Source of the DNA: an uncultured delta proteobacterium
GTDB lineage: Bacteria > Desulfobacterota > DSM-4660 > Desulfatiglandales > Desulfatiglandaceae
NCBI GenBank assembly: GCA_963747555.1
Contig: CAVVFZ010000029.1
Location: 8,876 to 72,875 of the forward strand
Length of the DNA stretch: 64,000 bases
Reading direction: 5' to 3'
Below the pieces are notes generated by a model. That model was not told the origin of the DNA, did no database searches, and saw only the letters and a program-made list of their open reading frames with translations. A program made the position numbers and the translations under genes. Positions 1-56,565 of this stretch are shown piece after piece. Within the stretch, counting starts at the first letter, position 1, and each line of letters starts with the position of its first letter.

Positions 1-159
1 CGGGATTGATACATCCTCCTGACCATCCTGATCGAGTGCCCAGCATAGAAAACGGCTGCCGCGAAAGAAATGGGGTGTATCCTGTATTTTGGTTCGGACT
101 GAAAAGTATTTACTTTATCACAGTCAGACAAAGCTTCTACAATAAAAAGCCATTTACGG

Positions 160-366
160 GTATCCTGTTTAAATTTTTCGACAACGCAATTGGTGTCAGG
201 AAGCCATTTCGTCACGAGGTCTTTTTTGCTGCCGCATCTGATTCCTAAACCGCAAAGAGATGAGTCCTTGATGGACGCGTTGTCCTTCCCCAAAATAAAT
301 ACCATCCTTCCATCCACGAAATGGGGTTTCCAACCCATTTTGGTTTTCCGCGAAACTGATAAGATT
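160..366 (+). mobile_element. Degenerate copy (E) of the ~255-bp palindromic MITE family defined in this window
   Basis: The left terminus GTATCCTGTTTAAATTT at 160 and the core CCATTTCGTCACGAGGTCTTTTTTGCTGCCGCATCTGATTCCTA (204-247) align with the left arms of the copies at 15396 and 56308. The right half is diverged, so the right boundary is approximate. Confidence 0.5.
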
Positions 367-2219: not shown

Positions 2220-2473
2220 GTATCTTATGCAAGAATCCCGGCAGGAATGAAGTCACGAGGTCTTTTTTGCTGCCGCATCTTGGATAAACCTTCACGGTCC
2301 GTTGAGAGGCCCTTCCATGCTGGTACAACAAACCCCCTCGAGATTCCTCCTTGGTCGTACCAGCATGTAAGGACCGGTGCTCCCATGGGAATCAGATGCG
2401 GCAGCAAAAAAGACCTCGTGACGGAATGGTTTTTCCTGGTCATCCTTTTGCTACCAGGAATTGAATAGGATAC
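2220..2473 (-). mobile_element. Full-length MITE copy C, inverted relative to the copies at 15396 and 56308
   Basis: Termini are GTATCTTATGCAA (2220) and TTGAATAGGATAC (2461-2473). The 28-bp arms GTCACGAGGTCTTTTTTGCTGCCGCATC / GATGCGGCAGCAAAAAAGACCTCGTGAC are present. The flanking 8-mers AACAAGAT (2212-2219) and ACCAAGAT (2474-2481) match at 7 of 8 positions. Confidence 0.85.
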
Positions 2474-15112: not shown

Positions 15113-15395
15113 AATTCCTTTTCCTCCTCTTTCGGTTTAGATTTAACGATTACGTTATCGAACAGATCCACATACGCATTATAATATTTTTACTTAATGA
15201 TACAATGCCAAATAAAAGGGAATGGGCGGAATCATGTATTTTGCCCTCAAAAGGGAGGTAGAACGCAAACAGAGCCCTTTGACGGAATGACTTTGCTGAA
15301 TCTAAGTGGTTTCCAGAGATTTTGAATAGGACACAGCATGGCCTGGCCCTGCTGCATTAACTCTGGAAAACGAGGAAAAAAAATGATATAAAAAC

Positions 15396-15652
15396 GTATT
15401 TTATTCAAATTCCCTGGCAGGGAAATGCGGAATCAGGAAACCCATTCCGTCACAAGGTCTTTTTTGCTGCCGCATCCAATTCCTACGGCAGCACCGGCTC
15501 TTTAGGCTGGTACGGACAAGTGGATGAAACTCAAGGGGTTTGGTTGTATCAGCCTAAAAGCGCGTCTCCACGGTCGGTGAAGGTTTATCCAAGATGCGGC
15601 AGCAAAAAAGACCTCGTGACTCCATTACCGCCAGGATTTTTGAATATGATGC
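15396..15652 (+). mobile_element. Full-length MITE copy A
   Basis: Termini are GTATTTTATTCAAA and TTTGAATATGATGC, with the conserved 28-bp arms and an apical stem. The flanking 8-mers ATAAAAAC / CAAAAAAG are only 5/8 identical, which suggests an older insertion. Confidence 0.85.
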
Positions 15653-21181: not shown

Positions 21182-21745
21182 TTAACCGAGGGGTGTAAAA
21201 ATAACCATCAGAACCTTGACCGCACCCTCACCCACCGAAACGCCTTTGTGGGGAATGCCTGAATCGAAATAGATGCAGTCTCCTTCGTGCATCATATATT
21301 CATTTTCCCCGTGAATAAATTTCATGCTTCCTTCCATAATCATCATCATCTCTTCGCCTTTATGCTGAAAAAGGGGATGTTGCTCCACTTCCCCGGGGAT
21401 GGTCAGAATATAGGGTTCCATATGTTTATGGGGGTATTTATGGGCGAGGGTTTCATAGGAATAACCGAACATGGTTCCGTCACGCGCCATGAGTTGACGG
21501 TCACCTTTCCTGACCAGAGAACAGGAAGTTTCGTCTTGCACTTCCCCCAGAATTTCGGAAATGCTCACTTGGAGGGCTTTTGAAATGTTCAGCAGAGTTG
21601 ATACAGGGGGGGCTTTGTCAGAATGTTCCACTTTCGACAAATAGCCCCTGCTTAAACCAGACTTTTGGGCCACATCCTCAAGGGTCAAGCCTCTTTCTTT
21701 TCGTATGCGCCCTATCATTTTCCCGATTTCATCTTCCGGAATCAT
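21182..21745 (-). CDS. XRE-family HTH transcriptional regulator with C-terminal cupin domain
   Basis: The HTH_3 segment IRKERGLTLEDVAQKSGLSRGYLSKVE, plus a cupin-like C-terminus (GEEMMMIMEGSMKF...GDCIYFDSGIPH). Confidence 0.85.
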   Translation of the reverse strand: MIPEDEIGKMIGRIRKERGLTLEDVAQKSGLSRGYLSKVEHSDKAPPVSTLLNISKALQVSISEILGEVQDETSCSLVRKGDRQLMARDGTMFGYSYETLAHKYPHKHMEPYILTIPGEVEQHPLFQHKGEEMMMIMEGSMKFIHGENEYMMHEGDCIYFDSGIPHKGVSVGEGAVKVLMVIFTPLG

Positions 21746-21958
21746 CTGCTCAGACCCTTTTGTAATTTCATAAAATCTCTTTCCGATGATGCTGTCAGAA
21801 GAAACAATAATTATCCTATGGGCAACAGATGCCTATTATGTTTCCATTTGTCAAGCAGAAAGTTTCCTAACAGGAACTTTTATACTGGCATAAGGAAACA
21901 ATCAATCCCCGCCTTTCGGGTATCTGATGGGGAAGGGCTTTAAGCGTGTAAGAAGAAA

Positions 21959-21985
21959 GAGAAAGGAGAGAAAGGAGAGAAAGGG
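21959..21985. repeat. Tandem 9-mer (GAGAAAGGA x3) inside a ~36-nt all-purine tract
   Basis: Direct reading of 21951-21986: agaagaaagagaaaggagagaaaggagagaaagggg. Confidence 0.8.
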
Positions 21986-22166
21986 GCAAATTATTGTTGA
22001 CAGGCTTAATCCGTGGCCGGAGTTTGGGGAAGAAGGGGGAAAAGAATTAAGGTAGTGTCTTTTTTGGCTTTGAGGGAGGGTGATGGGAACTATTGATCTG
22101 TTCCCTCCCTTTTCCGACTGAACATGCCAGACCGTTTTCAAAGATAAATTCTGTGGAGACTTGCTC

Positions 22167-23870
22167 CTATTTTTTGCCGGATCGGATGATGCTGATGATA
22201 AGCCAGATACCTAAGAGCGTGGCGATGGTATAGCCGGACAGACCGAGTAACGAAGTCAGGGAAATAGACTTTCCACCCAAAAAGCCTACGTTGAAAAGAA
22301 GTATCTTTTCGGATGCGTCAAACGCAGCGGCACCCGCGATGATCGAGGCAGCGACCAGGATGGCCAGGATCAGCCTGTTCAGTCCTCGATCCAGACGTCT
22401 TGAGATGTTATCAAATCCACTGTGACGAAGTTCCAGACTCTGTTTCCCCTGGGCGGTCTGCCGCAGGATATCATGCAGAAATTTGGGAGCGAGCCGAAGG
22501 AGCCTTCCGGCGGTCCAGGCATCTCTTCCCATGGACCGCAGAATTTTTTCCGAATCGTACCCCCGCTGCAACAAGGCCTTTGCGTAAGGTCTGATTACCA
22601 AAAGGATGCTGGCGTCACTCCCCAAAATTTTACCCAGCGCCTCCGTTTGGATAAAGGTTTTCAAGAGCAGCAGAAGGTTCTGCGGCAGCCGGATCTGATA
22701 TTTGAACAGCAGCCGGATCACCTGATCGTAAATGTCCACCACCGAAATGGTCTGAAGCGTTCGGCCGTAGAAAGGTTCGCTCATCTCCTTGAGGTCGTTT
22801 CGGAAGGCCCGCAGATCCATGTCTTCATCGATGATCCCGGTTTCCAGCAGGGATTCCATGACCAGACCGTAATCATGCTCGGCGTACCCCAAAAACAAAC
22901 GGGCGATCTGGATCATCAACTCCTCATCCAGATGGGCGGTAATGCCGAAATCCACAAGGCCTACGCGACCATCGGGCATCACGATGGTATTGCCGGGGTG
23001 GGGATCGGCATGCACGAATCCGAATTCCATCAACTGCCGGGACAGACTGCGCAGACCGATCATGGCAATCTCTTTGGGTTCAAGCCCCATTTCCCTGATG
23101 GCATCCACCTGATTCACCCGGACTCCCGGAACAAACTCCATGACCAGAACGGATTTGGTGGTCCATTCCCAATAGACTTTAGGAATGCATATTTCCTGGA
23201 TGGGCCGGTAATAATGGGAAAATTTCTCGATGCTTCCGGCCTCGATATGCATGTCGAGTTCATTAAAAATCGACCGCTCGAACTCCTTCACCACATTTCT
23301 GGCGCCGATGACCCGAGCCAATTCAAAAGCCTTTTCCAATTTCCGGGCAAGATAATACATCACCCGGATATCACTCCGGATCTGCCTGACAATGCCCGGT
23401 CGCACGACTTTCACGGCAACCTGCTCTCCGGTATTTAACCGGGCCTTGTAAACCTGGGCGATGGAGGCGGAGGCCAGGGCGGTCTCGTCAAATTCCTTGA
23501 AGGCACGGTTCAAAGACCCGCCCAGCTGTTTTTCGAGGAAAGGTTTAATCACACTGAAGGGCTGAGGAGGAACCTGATCCTGTAGCTTTTGAAGTTCCTC
23601 TATATATTGTGGTGGGAACAGATCCGCCCGGACACTCATAAGCTGCCCGAGCTTGATAAAACTGGGGCCCAGCTCGGTCAGGATATGACGCAGCCGGGCC
23701 GGGGATGGGACTGCGATGGAAGGACGTTCTTCCGCATACTTCAGGTCTCCCGCGGGACGGTTGACCAGAGCCTCGGCAAACATTCCAAAACCGTTTCGTA
23801 CCAGCACCCCGATGATGACGGCGAAACGCTTCAGGCCGTTAATGCCGATGAAATCCTTCTCAGGTTTCAT
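22167..23870 (-). CDS. ubiB: ABC1/UbiB-family atypical kinase
   Basis: ASASIAQVYKARL, HADPHPGN and DFG contexts, with C-terminal TM helices; 567 aa. Confidence 0.9.
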   Translation of the reverse strand: MKPEKDFIGINGLKRFAVIIGVLVRNGFGMFAEALVNRPAGDLKYAEERPSIAVPSPARLRHILTELGPSFIKLGQLMSVRADLFPPQYIEELQKLQDQVPPQPFSVIKPFLEKQLGGSLNRAFKEFDETALASASIAQVYKARLNTGEQVAVKVVRPGIVRQIRSDIRVMYYLARKLEKAFELARVIGARNVVKEFERSIFNELDMHIEAGSIEKFSHYYRPIQEICIPKVYWEWTTKSVLVMEFVPGVRVNQVDAIREMGLEPKEIAMIGLRSLSRQLMEFGFVHADPHPGNTIVMPDGRVGLVDFGITAHLDEELMIQIARLFLGYAEHDYGLVMESLLETGIIDEDMDLRAFRNDLKEMSEPFYGRTLQTISVVDIYDQVIRLLFKYQIRLPQNLLLLLKTFIQTEALGKILGSDASILLVIRPYAKALLQRGYDSEKILRSMGRDAWTAGRLLRLAPKFLHDILRQTAQGKQSLELRHSGFDNISRRLDRGLNRLILAILVAASIIAGAAAFDASEKILLFNVGFLGGKSISLTSLLGLSGYTIATLLGIWLIISIIRSGKK

Positions 23871-26967: not shown

Positions 26968-27028
26968 TGGGTCGCCCGTACCCATTCGGCATCGGCGACC
27001 TGTTAAGGATGAATAATAATAGCTTCGT

Positions 27029-27132
27029 TGTACCAGCATAAAAGAACCTCTCGACGGTCGATGAAGGTTTATCCAAGATGCGGCAGCAAAAAACCCTCGT
27101 GACTGCATTCGATCCATTGTTTTTGAAGTGCA
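27029..27132 (+). mobile_element. 5-prime-truncated MITE copy F (right arm only)
   Basis: GTACCAGCATAAAAGAACCTCTCGACGGTCGATGAAGGTTTATCCAAGATGCGGCAGCAAAAAACCCTCGTGAC aligns with the right arms of copies A, B and C. The terminal repeat is degenerate. Confidence 0.7.
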
Positions 27133-32307: not shown

Positions 32308-32561
32308 GGTTTACCCTCCCTGAATGAAGTTTTGGAAAATCCCTTAAACAATGGCCACGGCCGCCCGGCGCTCTACTTGTGGGGCTGCCGTGTTTAAGTA
32401 TAGCGAAAAGGAATCTCGGGATCAACGCTGAAATATTCCGGTTTGGGAATCCTATTTGATATTTTGCCGGGCCATTTCAGATTTCCTTTTGCCTAATGAA
32501 GATTAGAGGGTATAAAGAGATACATATGCAAAAGGATAGAATCATCAAGGAGGATTCATAG

Positions 32562-39743: not shown

Positions 39744-39839
39744 GTATCCTATTCAAATTTCCTGGTAGCAAAATGATGACCAGGAAAAACCATTCCATCA
39801 CGAGGTCTTTTTTGCTGCCGGGATTCTTGAATAAGATAC
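39744..39839 (+). mobile_element. Internally deleted mini-MITE copy D (96 bp) with perfect 8-bp target-site duplication
   Basis: The left 72 nt are identical in layout to copy C's left end (GTATCCTATTCAAATTTCCTGGTAGCAAAATGATGACCAGGAAAAACCATTCCATCACGAGGTCTTTTTTGCTGCC). They are joined directly to the right terminus GGGATTCTTGAATAAGATAC. AAAAATGC occurs at 39736-39743 and again at 39840-39847. Confidence 0.85.
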
Positions 39840-56307: not shown

Positions 56308-56565
56308 GTATCCTATTCAAATTTCCTGGTAGCGCGGAGTACACAGCCGGCGAACCATTCCGTCACGAGGTCTTTTTTGTTGCCGTATCTGATTCCTACG
56401 GATGCGCCGGTCCTTCTATGCTGGTACGGAAAAATGGAGGTATGACAACAGCTTCCTTGTACCAGCATAGAAGGACCTCTCGACGGTCTGTGAAGGCACA
56501 TCCAAGATGCGGCAACAAAAAAGACCTCGTGACTCCATTTCTGCCAGGATTTTTGAATAGGATGC
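56308..56565 (+). mobile_element. Full-length MITE copy B (archetype) with perfect 8-bp target-site duplication
   Basis: Termini are GTATCCTATTCAAA and TTTGAATAGGATGC. GCGCGAAT occurs at 56300-56307 and again at 56566-56573. It has 28-bp basal arms and a perfect 19-bp apical stem, GGTCCTTCTATGCTGGTAC / GTACCAGCATAGAAGGACC. Confidence 0.9.

What the first reader, a model, noticed from the sequence alone, without database searches (positions are those of the whole stretch)
15396..15652. Compensatory base changes in the MITE apical stem suggest the hairpin itself is maintained
Each full copy folds on paper into a ~100-bp imperfect hairpin. The basal stem is a 28-bp duplex, GTCACGAGGTCTTTTTTGCTGCCGCATC / GATGCGGCAGCAAAAAAGACCTCGTGAC, followed by an asymmetric internal loop and an apical stem. 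Copy B pairs TCTATGCTGGTAC with GTACCAGCATAGA. Copy A has TTTAGGCTGGTAC with GTATCAGCCTAAA. That is two double substitutions that keep pairing (C:G to T:A and T:A to G:C), plus one G:C to G:T wobble. In copy C, both arms changed the same pair from T:A to C:G (CCATGCTGGTAC / GTACCAGCATGT..). The loop sequences differ freely between copies. This pattern is what one expects if the structure is selected, either as an RNA or as a DNA cruciform/transposase substrate. Neutral decay of a dead repeat would not produce it.
Basis: partly seen in the sequence, partly recalled or inferred. Interest (0 to 1): 0.6.

Follow-up and report, generated by a model that had tools for sequence, protein, structure and literature searches.

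The report
Palindromic MITE with concerted arm changes
The hairpin belongs to an ordinary small mobile DNA element; its two arms really do change together more often than chance allows, but equally on both strands, which points to DNA-level upkeep of a palindrome and not to a functional RNA.

Summary
Window 15396-15652 is one copy of a ~258-nt near-palindromic MITE. It has 14-24-nt terminal inverted repeats and 8-bp target duplications. The genome (an uncultured Desulfatiglandales bacterium) holds 228 loci: 86 good full copies and about 140 partial ones, 41 of them complete short derivatives. The family is confined to one genus. Most copies of related species are empty sites here. Its ends match a ~1.9-kb IS66-like insertion sequence.

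On a tree of the 86 copies there are 44 same-branch Watson-Crick-to-Watson-Crick double changes at 95 pairs, against 8.4 expected. Of these, 33 lie on terminal branches in 24 copies. An independent set of 37 foreign copies also shows an excess.

The inference to selection, or to an RNA, is not supported:
- G:U and A:C mismatches are equally common.
- Both strands fold equally well.
- There is no orientation bias relative to genes and no Rfam match.
- Deletion derivatives of 70-104 bp lacking both stems still spread, so the stems are not a transposase requirement.

A known non-selective process, quasi-palindrome correction by replication template switching, produces exactly such paired changes. 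Stem sequences are also conserved in propagating lineages. This is a new member of a known kind, of modest interest.

The parts
15396..15652 (+). Full-length MITE copy A (257 nt), the finding itself. The flanking 8-mers ATAAAAAC / CAAAAAAG are only a degenerate target duplication.
   Evidence: nhmmer scores it 283 bits on the + strand and 90 bits on the - strand.
15396..15419 (+). Left terminal inverted repeat (GTATTTTATTCAAATTCCCTGGCA). It pairs with the right terminus at 15629-15652.
   Evidence: The first ~24 nt match the end of the IS66-like element.
15449..15476 (+). Left arm of the 28-bp basal stem (GTCACAAGGTCTTTTTTGCTGCCGCATC).
   Evidence: It is the most conserved part of the family: 0.53 changes per column on internal branches and 2.43 on terminal branches.
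15501..15513 (+). Left arm of the apical stem (TTTAGGCTGGTAC). It carries the subfamily-2 states at pairs 107:163 and 110:160.
15546..15558 (+). Right arm of the apical stem (GTATCAGCCTAAA).
15593..15620 (+). Right arm of the basal stem (GATGCGGCAGCAAAAAAGACCTCGTGAC).
2220..2473 (-). Full-length copy C. It has the compensated pair 108:162 T:A to C:G.
56308..56565 (+). Full-length copy B. It has compensated pairs 72:208 (C:G to T:A, an internal-branch event shared by two copies) and 97:190 (A:T to G:C, on its own terminal branch).
39744..39839 (+). 96-bp internally deleted derivative with no basal or apical stem and a perfect 8-bp target duplication, AAAAATGC.
159..247 (+). Truncated copy with the left arm only.
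27007..27128 (+). Truncated copy with the right arm only.
15265..15340 (-). Degenerate left-end remnant of the same family, about 55 nt upstream of copy A.
   Evidence: 34 bits.
32520..32531 (.). Empty insertion site. A related species carries a full copy exactly here (L013:1670-1931).

Best explanation
The feature is one copy of a ~258-nt non-autonomous transposon (MITE). It is mobilised through its ~25-nt terminal inverted repeats by an IS66-like transposase and makes 8-bp target duplications.

Almost the whole element is an imperfect palindrome. Its arms are kept complementary at the DNA level, equally on both strands. The most economical cause of the 'compensatory' changes is concerted correction of the quasi-palindrome. 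A substitution in one arm creates a mismatch in the fold-back that forms during replication. Template switching, or another arm-to-arm copying step, then either reverts the change or copies it into the other arm.

In addition, the stem sequences themselves are conserved in the lineages that left descendants. Some purifying selection on the propagating elements therefore acts as well.

Shown here: the MITE anatomy and mobility, the excess of paired double changes, the strand symmetry, and the fact that derivatives without stems still spread.

Inferred: template switching as the copying mechanism, and the reason why the stem sequence is conserved.
For: MITE identity:
- Terminal inverted repeats and 8-bp target duplications.
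- 228 loci in the genome.
- About 11 of 15 mapped copies of ~90%-identical relatives are empty sites here.
- Restricted to one genus.
- An IS with a 556-aa IS66-like transposase, the same termini and a perfect 8-bp duplication.

Concerted arm changes:
- 44 double changes against 8.4 expected, 33 of them private to single copies.
- Replicated in cell counts on foreign copies.
- One orthologous pair, L027 and G000 C34, shows changes made in place after insertion: 71:209 G:C to A:T, and 56:224 T:G to T:A.

DNA level and symmetric:
- G:U 249 against A:C 261 cells. Folding energy is -114.0 kcal/mol on the + strand and -113.1 on the - strand, p = 0.24.
- WC-to-GU 208 against WC-to-AC 210 events.
- On the sense strand, terminal-branch transitions are 124 G:U-making against 125 A:C-making.
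- No orientation bias, 22 against 20.

Copy-like signature:
- Doubles have a transition:transversion ratio of 30:14, like single changes at paired sites (418:219). Two independent hits would give about 39:5.
- The ratio of doubles to pair-breaking changes is the same on internal (11:128) and terminal (33:520) branches.

Established knowledge: template switching corrects imperfect inverted repeats in bacteria (PMC5941160, PMC7202029).
Against: - No mirrored indel was found among about 30 one-sided indels in the stems (low power, about 2 expected).
- Double changes are not surrounded by a zone cleared of mismatches. The mean distance to the nearest non-WC pair is 5.3, as for random pairs, and 10 of 30 doubles have a non-WC neighbour. 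Any copied patches would have to be very short, or later mutation has refilled them.
- Correction alone does not lower the substitution rate, yet stems change 2.5 to 6.6 times less than loops. Selection of some kind must also act.
- Transversions are relatively rarer in stems than in loops (transition:transversion 1.74 against 1.16). This could mean that selection filters mismatches, and it weakens the transition:transversion argument.
- Events were inferred by parsimony on a FastTree tree of short, possibly recombining sequences from a metagenome-assembled genome.
Confidence: 0.5

Rival explanations
1. Selection among element lineages for a DNA fold-back. A full-length copy must extrude or fold its interior (as a cruciform or single-stranded hairpin) to bring its two ends together for the IS66-like transposase. 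Copies with broken stems then stop spreading, and only compensated lineages leave descendants.
For: Stems are far more conserved than loops, and the contrast is stronger on internal, propagating branches: 0.53 against 3.5 changes per column, compared with 2.43 against about 6 on terminal branches. Transversion mismatches are relatively depleted in stems. The strand symmetry fits a DNA structure.
Against: - 41 derivatives of 70-190 bp, nearly all lacking both stems, carry perfect 8-bp duplications at different loci. Several share one deletion junction, so they spread without the hairpin.
- The IS shares only the terminal ~25-40 nt with the MITE.
- Doubles are not enriched relative to pair-breaking changes on internal branches (p = 0.44).
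- At least one compensation happened in a resident orthologous copy.
Confidence: 0.2
2. A functional structured RNA. The element is transcribed and its hairpin is selected at the RNA level, for example as a processing, stability or termination signal, as proposed for bcr1 of the Bacillus cereus group.
For: There is a precedent for compensatory changes in a transcribed bacterial repeat (PMC3184786). The RNA fold is very stable. Counting cells on the strand of co-directional flanking genes gives a weak excess of G:U over A:C: 149 against 112, p = 0.026.
Against: - That excess vanishes when only terminal-branch changes are counted, the ones that can have arisen at the present locus: 124 against 125.
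- There is no G:U excess in element orientation, both strands have equal folding energy, and there is no orientation bias relative to genes.
- There is no Rfam match at gathering or E <= 1 thresholds beyond chance-level miRNA hits, and no terminator-like or promoter-like site in the copy.
Confidence: 0.12
3. No maintenance at all. The apparent covariation is a by-product of subfamily structure, tree error, recombination between copies or alignment.
For:
- Many unpaired columns also show high mutual information.
- The number of pairs with a both-side change is not significant in the foreign set: 19 against 17.4.
- The RNAalifold covariation term is small, -0.97.
- Pair 110:160 recurs six times on the tree, which suggests homoplasy or recombination.
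Against: Controls that keep the tree (non-partner complementary columns, rate-matched partners) expect 8 to 15 doubles against 44 observed. Thirty-three doubles are private to 24 copies and lie in well-aligned, otherwise invariant stems. Slid-partner controls give less than half the observed cells.
Confidence: 0.05

Closest known systems
Bacterial MITEs derived from IS elements (for example Correia/NEMIS of Neisseria, ERIC, RUP, MITEAba12)
   Same: Short and non-coding, with terminal inverted repeats, target-site duplications, many intergenic copies, presence/absence differences between relatives, and termini shared with an autonomous IS.
   Different: Nearly the whole 258 nt is a palindrome, and its interior is unrelated to the partner IS. 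The partner is a distant single-ORF IS66-like element. The host is an uncultured Desulfatiglandales genus. It is a new family by sequence.
bcr1 repeat of the Bacillus cereus group (Klevan et al. 2007, as reviewed in PMC3184786)
   Same: A mobile repeat of ~150-250 nt with target duplications, in which compensatory base-pair changes keep a long double-stranded fold.
   Different: bcr1 is reported to be transcribed and its structure is argued at the RNA level. Here no strand-specific signature was found and transcription could not be tested. The target duplication is 8 bp, not 5 bp.
Quasi-palindrome correction by replication template switching (Ripley 1982; Lovett laboratory reporters, PMC7202029; comparative evidence in Proteobacteria, PMC5941160)
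   Same: Imperfect inverted repeats whose arms change in concert, independent of strand, without any need for selection on a product.
   Different: The published cases are short inverted repeats (arms of a few to tens of nt) or reporter genes. Here the substrate would be a ~125-nt-arm mobile element present in about 90 copies. The expected multi-nucleotide patches and mirrored indels were not seen.
REP/REPIN elements mobilised by RAYT (IS200/IS605-like) transposases
   Same: Abundant intergenic palindromes that fold as single-stranded DNA.
   Different: REPs are 20-40 nt, lack terminal inverted repeats and target duplications, and are recognised as strand-specific hairpins. This element has both features and shows no strand asymmetry.

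Membership tests
MITE (non-autonomous DDE transposon) | Terminal inverted repeats | tested here: met
   GTATCCTATTCAAA... / ...TTTGAATAAGATAC are 90-99% conserved in 86 copies.
MITE (non-autonomous DDE transposon) | Target-site duplication of fixed length | tested here: met
   8-bp direct repeats flank most full copies and 17 of 41 short derivatives perfectly.
MITE (non-autonomous DDE transposon) | Small, non-coding, many dispersed copies | tested here: met
   The element is 258 nt and sits at 228 loci. Only 1 of 86 full copies lies inside an ORF of 150 aa or more.
MITE (non-autonomous DDE transposon) | Mobility: filled versus empty orthologous sites | tested here: met
   About 11 of 15 mapped copies of related species are empty sites in this genome. 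One such site lies at window ~32520-32531.
MITE (non-autonomous DDE transposon) | An autonomous element with the same termini | tested here: met
   L068:445-2406 is 1962 bp, has a GTATCCTATTCAC... inverted repeat and the perfect duplication TCTCCTTT. The own-genome copy L069:530-2364 has a right end identical to the MITE over ~24 nt.
IS66 family (partner transposase) | Transposase matches the IS66 DDE models | tested here: inconclusive
   Pfam PF03050 scores 37.9 bits (cut-off 23.1), but only over profile positions 4-90. NCBIfam transpos_IS66 scores 94.8 bits, below its cut-off of 180. It is a distant relative.
IS66 family (partner transposase) | 8-bp target duplication | tested here: met
   That IS66 elements typically make 8-bp duplications comes from my own knowledge.
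Structured functional RNA (Rfam family or bcr1-like transcribed repeat) | Match to a curated RNA family | tested here: not met
   There are 0 hits at gathering score. Only two chance-level miRNA hits appear at E = 0.12 and 0.84.
Structured functional RNA (Rfam family or bcr1-like transcribed repeat) | Strand-specific pairing: G:U tolerated more than A:C on the functional strand | tested here: not met
   Counts are 249 against 261 cells, 208 against 210 events, and 124 against 125 for sense-strand terminal changes. A weak cell-level excess of 149 against 112 was not reproduced.
Structured functional RNA (Rfam family or bcr1-like transcribed repeat) | Orientation bias relative to transcription | tested here: not met
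   22 opposite against 20 same with ORFs of 150 aa or more. A bias seen with crude ORFs of 90-100 aa (22 against 8) did not hold.
Structured functional RNA (Rfam family or bcr1-like transcribed repeat) | A discrete transcript | not testable with these tools
Quasi-palindrome under template-switch correction | Both arms change in concert beyond a phylogeny-aware expectation | tested here: met
   44 against 8.4 doubles, and 71 against 31 +/- 5 co-changes.
Quasi-palindrome under template-switch correction | Events occur in resident copies, not only in transposing lineages | tested here: inconclusive
   One informative orthologous pair shows 71:209 G:C to A:T. Only 2 cross-species pairs were found by the both-flank comparison, and one of them is near-identical.
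Quasi-palindrome under template-switch correction | Copied patches: mirrored indels or multi-nucleotide tracts | tested here: not met
   There are 0 mirrored indels among about 30 and no mismatch-free zone around doubles. The only adjacent double is 59:221 with 60:220, on one internal branch. Power is low.
REP/REPIN | No terminal inverted repeats or target duplication; 20-40-nt strand-specific hairpin | tested here: not met
   The element has terminal inverted repeats and 8-bp duplications and is 258 nt long.

The most novel reading that the evidence does not exclude
A MITE family could serve as a natural population-scale record of quasi-palindrome self-correction. About 90 copies per genome would each repair arm mismatches in place by fold-back-templated copying, so long palindromic mobile elements would stay foldable without any selection on structure. 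If so, 'covariation' in DNA palindromes would be a systematic false positive for RNA-structure tests. Such families could also be used to measure template-switch rates, patch lengths and strand dependence in uncultured bacteria.
Probability: 0.3. Interest if true: 0.5.

Novelty: new member of a known kind. Interest (0 to 1): 0.3.

Why it matters
The case is a useful caution. Compensatory-looking double substitutions in an inverted repeat do not by themselves show selection on an RNA or DNA structure, because arm-to-arm correction produces them too. Three cheap discriminators are available: the symmetry of G:U against A:C mismatches, orientation relative to genes, and the behaviour of deletion derivatives.

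For genome annotation, the case defines a genus-specific MITE family, its short derivatives and its IS66-like partner in Desulfatiglandales. These explain many long intergenic spacers and truncated genes in these metagenome-assembled genomes.

Tried and rejected
1. My first family alignment mixed both strands, because nhmmer hits each near-palindromic copy twice. This produced spurious symmetric pair counts. I fixed it by keeping the better-scoring strand of each locus.
2. RNAalifold on the 177-row mixed alignment gave almost no structure. I used the fold of the consensus for pair definitions instead.
3. An orientation bias of 22 against 8 appeared with crude ORFs of 90 aa or more. It disappeared with ORFs of 150 aa or more, so I rejected it.
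4. A sense-strand excess of G:U cells, 149 against 112, was not reproduced with terminal-branch changes. I treated it as inherited states, not as a local effect.
5. I searched this genome and the fetched loci for a long element bounded by the MITE termini with a target duplication. It found only a 481-bp composite. The IS was found later through a Pfam PF03050 search.
6. Two MITE ends at C25:240393-242406 enclose two kinase-like ORFs, not a transposase, and have no duplication. This is not the autonomous element.
7. I tested whether the tip of subfamily 2 is the flipped tip of subfamily 1, reading the consensus sequences by eye. It is not.
8. Mirrored indels and cleared neighbourhoods, sought as signatures of copied tracts, were not found.
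9. I looked for orthologous copy pairs to measure evolution in place. Only two cross-species pairs passed the both-flank comparison, one of them near-identical, plus two within-genome duplicates. The flank-mapping test had counted three filled sites. This is too few for statistics.

Full report
**What is at the coordinates**

The apical arms are TTTAGGCTGGTAC (15501-15513) and GTATCAGCCTAAA (15546-15558). The 28-nt basal arms lie at 15449-15476 and 15593-15620, with one A:C mismatch in this copy.

The whole 257 nt folds into one long imperfect hairpin, not only about 100 bp. As RNA the energy is -112.6 kcal/mol (z = -8.8). As DNA it is -63.4 kcal/mol (z = -9.7).

The window holds two more full copies, at 2220-2473 on the minus strand and at 56308-56565. 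It also holds a 96-bp derivative, two truncated copies and one degenerate remnant.

**What the element is**

The genome is 5.44 Mb in 36 contigs, with 50.6% G+C. nhmmer finds 228 loci in it. Eighty-six are good full-length copies.

The element has a definite orientation: about 300 bits on one strand against about 100 on the other. My first pass ignored this and mixed strands, which I then corrected.

- The copies end in GTATCCTATTCAAA... and ...TTTGAATAAGATAC.
- They are flanked by 8-bp direct repeats that differ from site to site.
- With ORFs of 150 aa or more, only 1 of 86 copies lies inside a gene. Divergent, tandem and convergent spacers are used roughly in proportion to their length.
- The exact 28-mer of the basal stem occurs only in three other species-level genomes, all uncultured Desulfatiglandales or 'delta proteobacterium' MAGs. 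It also occurs in 18 metagenome contigs.
- A whole-genome search of 30 relatives finds the element only in the window's own genus.

Syntenic DNA of the relatives is about 84-96% identical to this genome. Yet about 11 of 15 of their copies with mapped flanks correspond to empty sites here. One empty site lies inside the window at ~32520-32531. The family has therefore moved since these species split.

**The autonomous partner**

I tested this independently with a search for Pfam PF03050 in the four genomes of the genus.

- In G002, a 1962-bp element (L068:445-2406) has GTATCCTATTCAC... inverted termini, a perfect 8-bp duplication (TCTCCTTT) and a 556-aa ORF.
- This genome holds a copy (L069:530-2364, on contig C7). 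Its right end is identical to the MITE terminus over about 24 nt.
- The protein matches Pfam DDE_Tnp_IS66 above the cut-off, but only at its N-terminal part. It matches NCBIfam IS66 below the cut-off. It is a distant IS66 relative.
- Only the terminal ~25-40 nt are shared, so the basal and apical stems of the MITE do not come from the IS.

**Is the covariation real?**

The family has two main subfamilies of 44 and 40 copies. Mean pairwise distance is 0.21. Many unpaired columns are just as correlated. Counting copies therefore overstates the evidence, so I counted events by parsimony on a tree of the 86 copies.

- At 95 pairs there are 44 branches on which both partners change from one Watson-Crick pair to another. 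Eleven are internal and 33 terminal, spread over 24 copies.
- Non-partner complementary stem columns on the same tree predict 8.4.
- Rate-matched false partners give 31 +/- 5 co-changes against 71 observed, with a maximum of 51 in 2000 draws.
- On an independent alignment (37 copies from other genomes plus the 3 window copies), the pair-counting tool gives 73 both-side cells. Shuffles give 42 +/- 5 (0 of 500 as high), and slid partners give 17-34.
- In that set the number of pairs with such a change (19 against 17.4) is not significant. The RNAalifold covariation term is small.

The excess is real. It consists of a few subfamily events plus many scattered single-copy events. Most stem mutations stay uncompensated: 648 pair-breaking changes against 44 doubles.

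**On which molecule does it act?**

A structure selected in one RNA strand should tolerate G:U but not A:C. Neither is favoured:

- Cell counts are 249 G:U against 261 A:C.
- Event counts are 208 WC-to-GU against 210 WC-to-AC.
- The two strands fold equally well: -114.0 against -113.1 kcal/mol, p = 0.24.
- Element orientation is unrelated to the direction of flanking genes: 22 against 20 copies, or 46 against 41 with partial copies included.
- Counting cells on the sense strand of co-directional neighbours gave a weak G:U excess, 149 against 112, p = 0.026. Terminal-branch changes are the only ones that can have arisen at the present locus, and they are balanced at 124 against 125. I discount the cell-level excess.
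- Rfam has no match, and no terminator-like or promoter-like site lies in the copy.

What can be tested points to a symmetric, DNA-level process.

**Is the hairpin needed for transposition?**

Forty-one complete derivatives of 70-190 bp were found. Nearly all keep only the left ~55-75 nt and the right ~20-30 nt, so they lack both stems.

- Seventeen have perfect 8-bp duplications and more have one mismatch.
- Several share the same deletion junction and diagnostic bases at different loci.
- The simplest reading is that they spread after the deletion.

Together with the short stretch shared with the IS, this argues that the transposase needs only the termini. The stems are not a transposase substrate. 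Recurrent deletion in place at microhomologies (CTGCC, TTTTTG) cannot be fully excluded.

**Selection or correction?**

That does not hold for DNA palindromes. Replication template switching corrects imperfect inverted repeats to perfect ones in bacteria, and it has been proposed to conserve such repeats over evolutionary time (PMC7202029, PMC5941160).

Several observations fit a copy mechanism:

- The strand symmetry described above.
- A transition:transversion ratio of doubles of 30:14, like single changes at paired sites (418:219). Two independent hits would give about 39:5 (p = 4e-4, or 0.04 after removing the two recurrent pairs).
- The same ratio of doubles to breaks on internal and terminal branches.
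- A compensation made in place between orthologous copies: L027 against C34, 71:209 G:C to A:T, plus 56:224 T:G to T:A.

Several observations count against it:

- None of about 30 stem indels is mirrored.
- Doubles are not surrounded by a zone cleared of mismatches.
- Correction cannot explain why stems change 2.5 to 6.6 times less than loops, most strongly on internal branches.
- It also does not explain why transversions are relatively rare in stems.

I conclude that both processes act. Some purifying selection keeps the stem sequence in lineages that propagate, for a reason not yet known. Arm-to-arm correction is the most economical source of the paired changes. My odds:

- correction as the main cause: 0.5
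- selection for a DNA fold-back in mobilisation: 0.2
- a functional RNA: 0.12
- artefact: 0.05

**Comparison with what is known**

The element meets every defining feature of a bacterial MITE. By sequence it is a new family with a distant IS66-like partner. Compensatory changes in a mobile bacterial repeat have been described for bcr1 of the Bacillus cereus group (review PMC3184786). Concerted evolution of inverted-repeat arms is also known. The finding is therefore a new member of a known kind.

**Limits**

- The genome is a metagenome-assembled genome at about 91% completeness.
- Gene calls were my own crude ORF calls.
- Ancestral states come from parsimony on a tree of short sequences.
- Orthologous pairs were too few for statistics.

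Noticed in passing
window 39744-39839, and 40 other loci in the genome (for example G000 C9:19746, C10:161337, C28:21724): A population of 70-190-bp internally deleted derivatives of the MITE. Most have 8-bp target duplications. Deletion junctions recur at microhomologies (CTGCC, TTTTTG). Several share a junction and diagnostic bases, so they appear to have spread after the deletion.
   Followed up: partly
L069:530-2364 (G000 contig C7, about 21373-23207) and L068:445-2406 (G002 contig C9): A ~1.9-kb IS with a 556-aa distant IS66-like transposase and the MITE's termini. The G002 copy has a perfect 8-bp duplication. In the own-genome copy the left terminus is degenerate, but the ORF is intact.
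   Followed up: partly
G000 contig C25:240393-242406: A left MITE end and a right MITE end lie 2 kb apart in the correct orientation. They enclose two ordinary-looking ORFs, of 352 aa and 181 aa (the latter with a P-loop, GLPGSGKST), with no target duplication. These are either two truncated copies or a captured cargo segment.
   Followed up: no
window 15265-15340 (minus strand): A degenerate left-end remnant of the same family lies about 55 nt upstream of copy A. This spacer has therefore been hit at least twice.
   Followed up: no
family alignment of 86 copies, columns 119:151 and 120:150 (in copy A, G15514/G15515 facing T15544/T15545): Two G:T juxtapositions at the top of the apical stem are conserved in 76-80 of 86 copies in element orientation. 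On the other strand they are C:A. This is the only consistent asymmetry between the arms apart from the extra ~16-30 nt in the left arm (columns 25-53).
   Followed up: no
family-wide statistic: The transition:transversion ratio is 1.74 in stem columns and 1.16 in unpaired columns (p = 2e-4). Either strongly disruptive mismatches are filtered in stems, or alignment noise inflates transversions in the loops.
   Followed up: no
L044-L061 (metagenome contigs): The same MITE family occurs on contigs named BS_KBA_SWE02_21m and on several ERZ assemblies whose flanking genes are only 83-88% identical to this genome. The family therefore extends to more distant, unbinned relatives.
   Followed up: partly
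G000 C12:43985-44239 against C13:5665-5918, and C24:21981-22241 against C11:334049-334297: Two pairs of copies share both flanks at 92-98% identity within the one assembly. These are either segmental duplications or co-assembled strain variants in the metagenome-assembled genome. One member of the second pair carries many 1-nt deletions.
   Followed up: no
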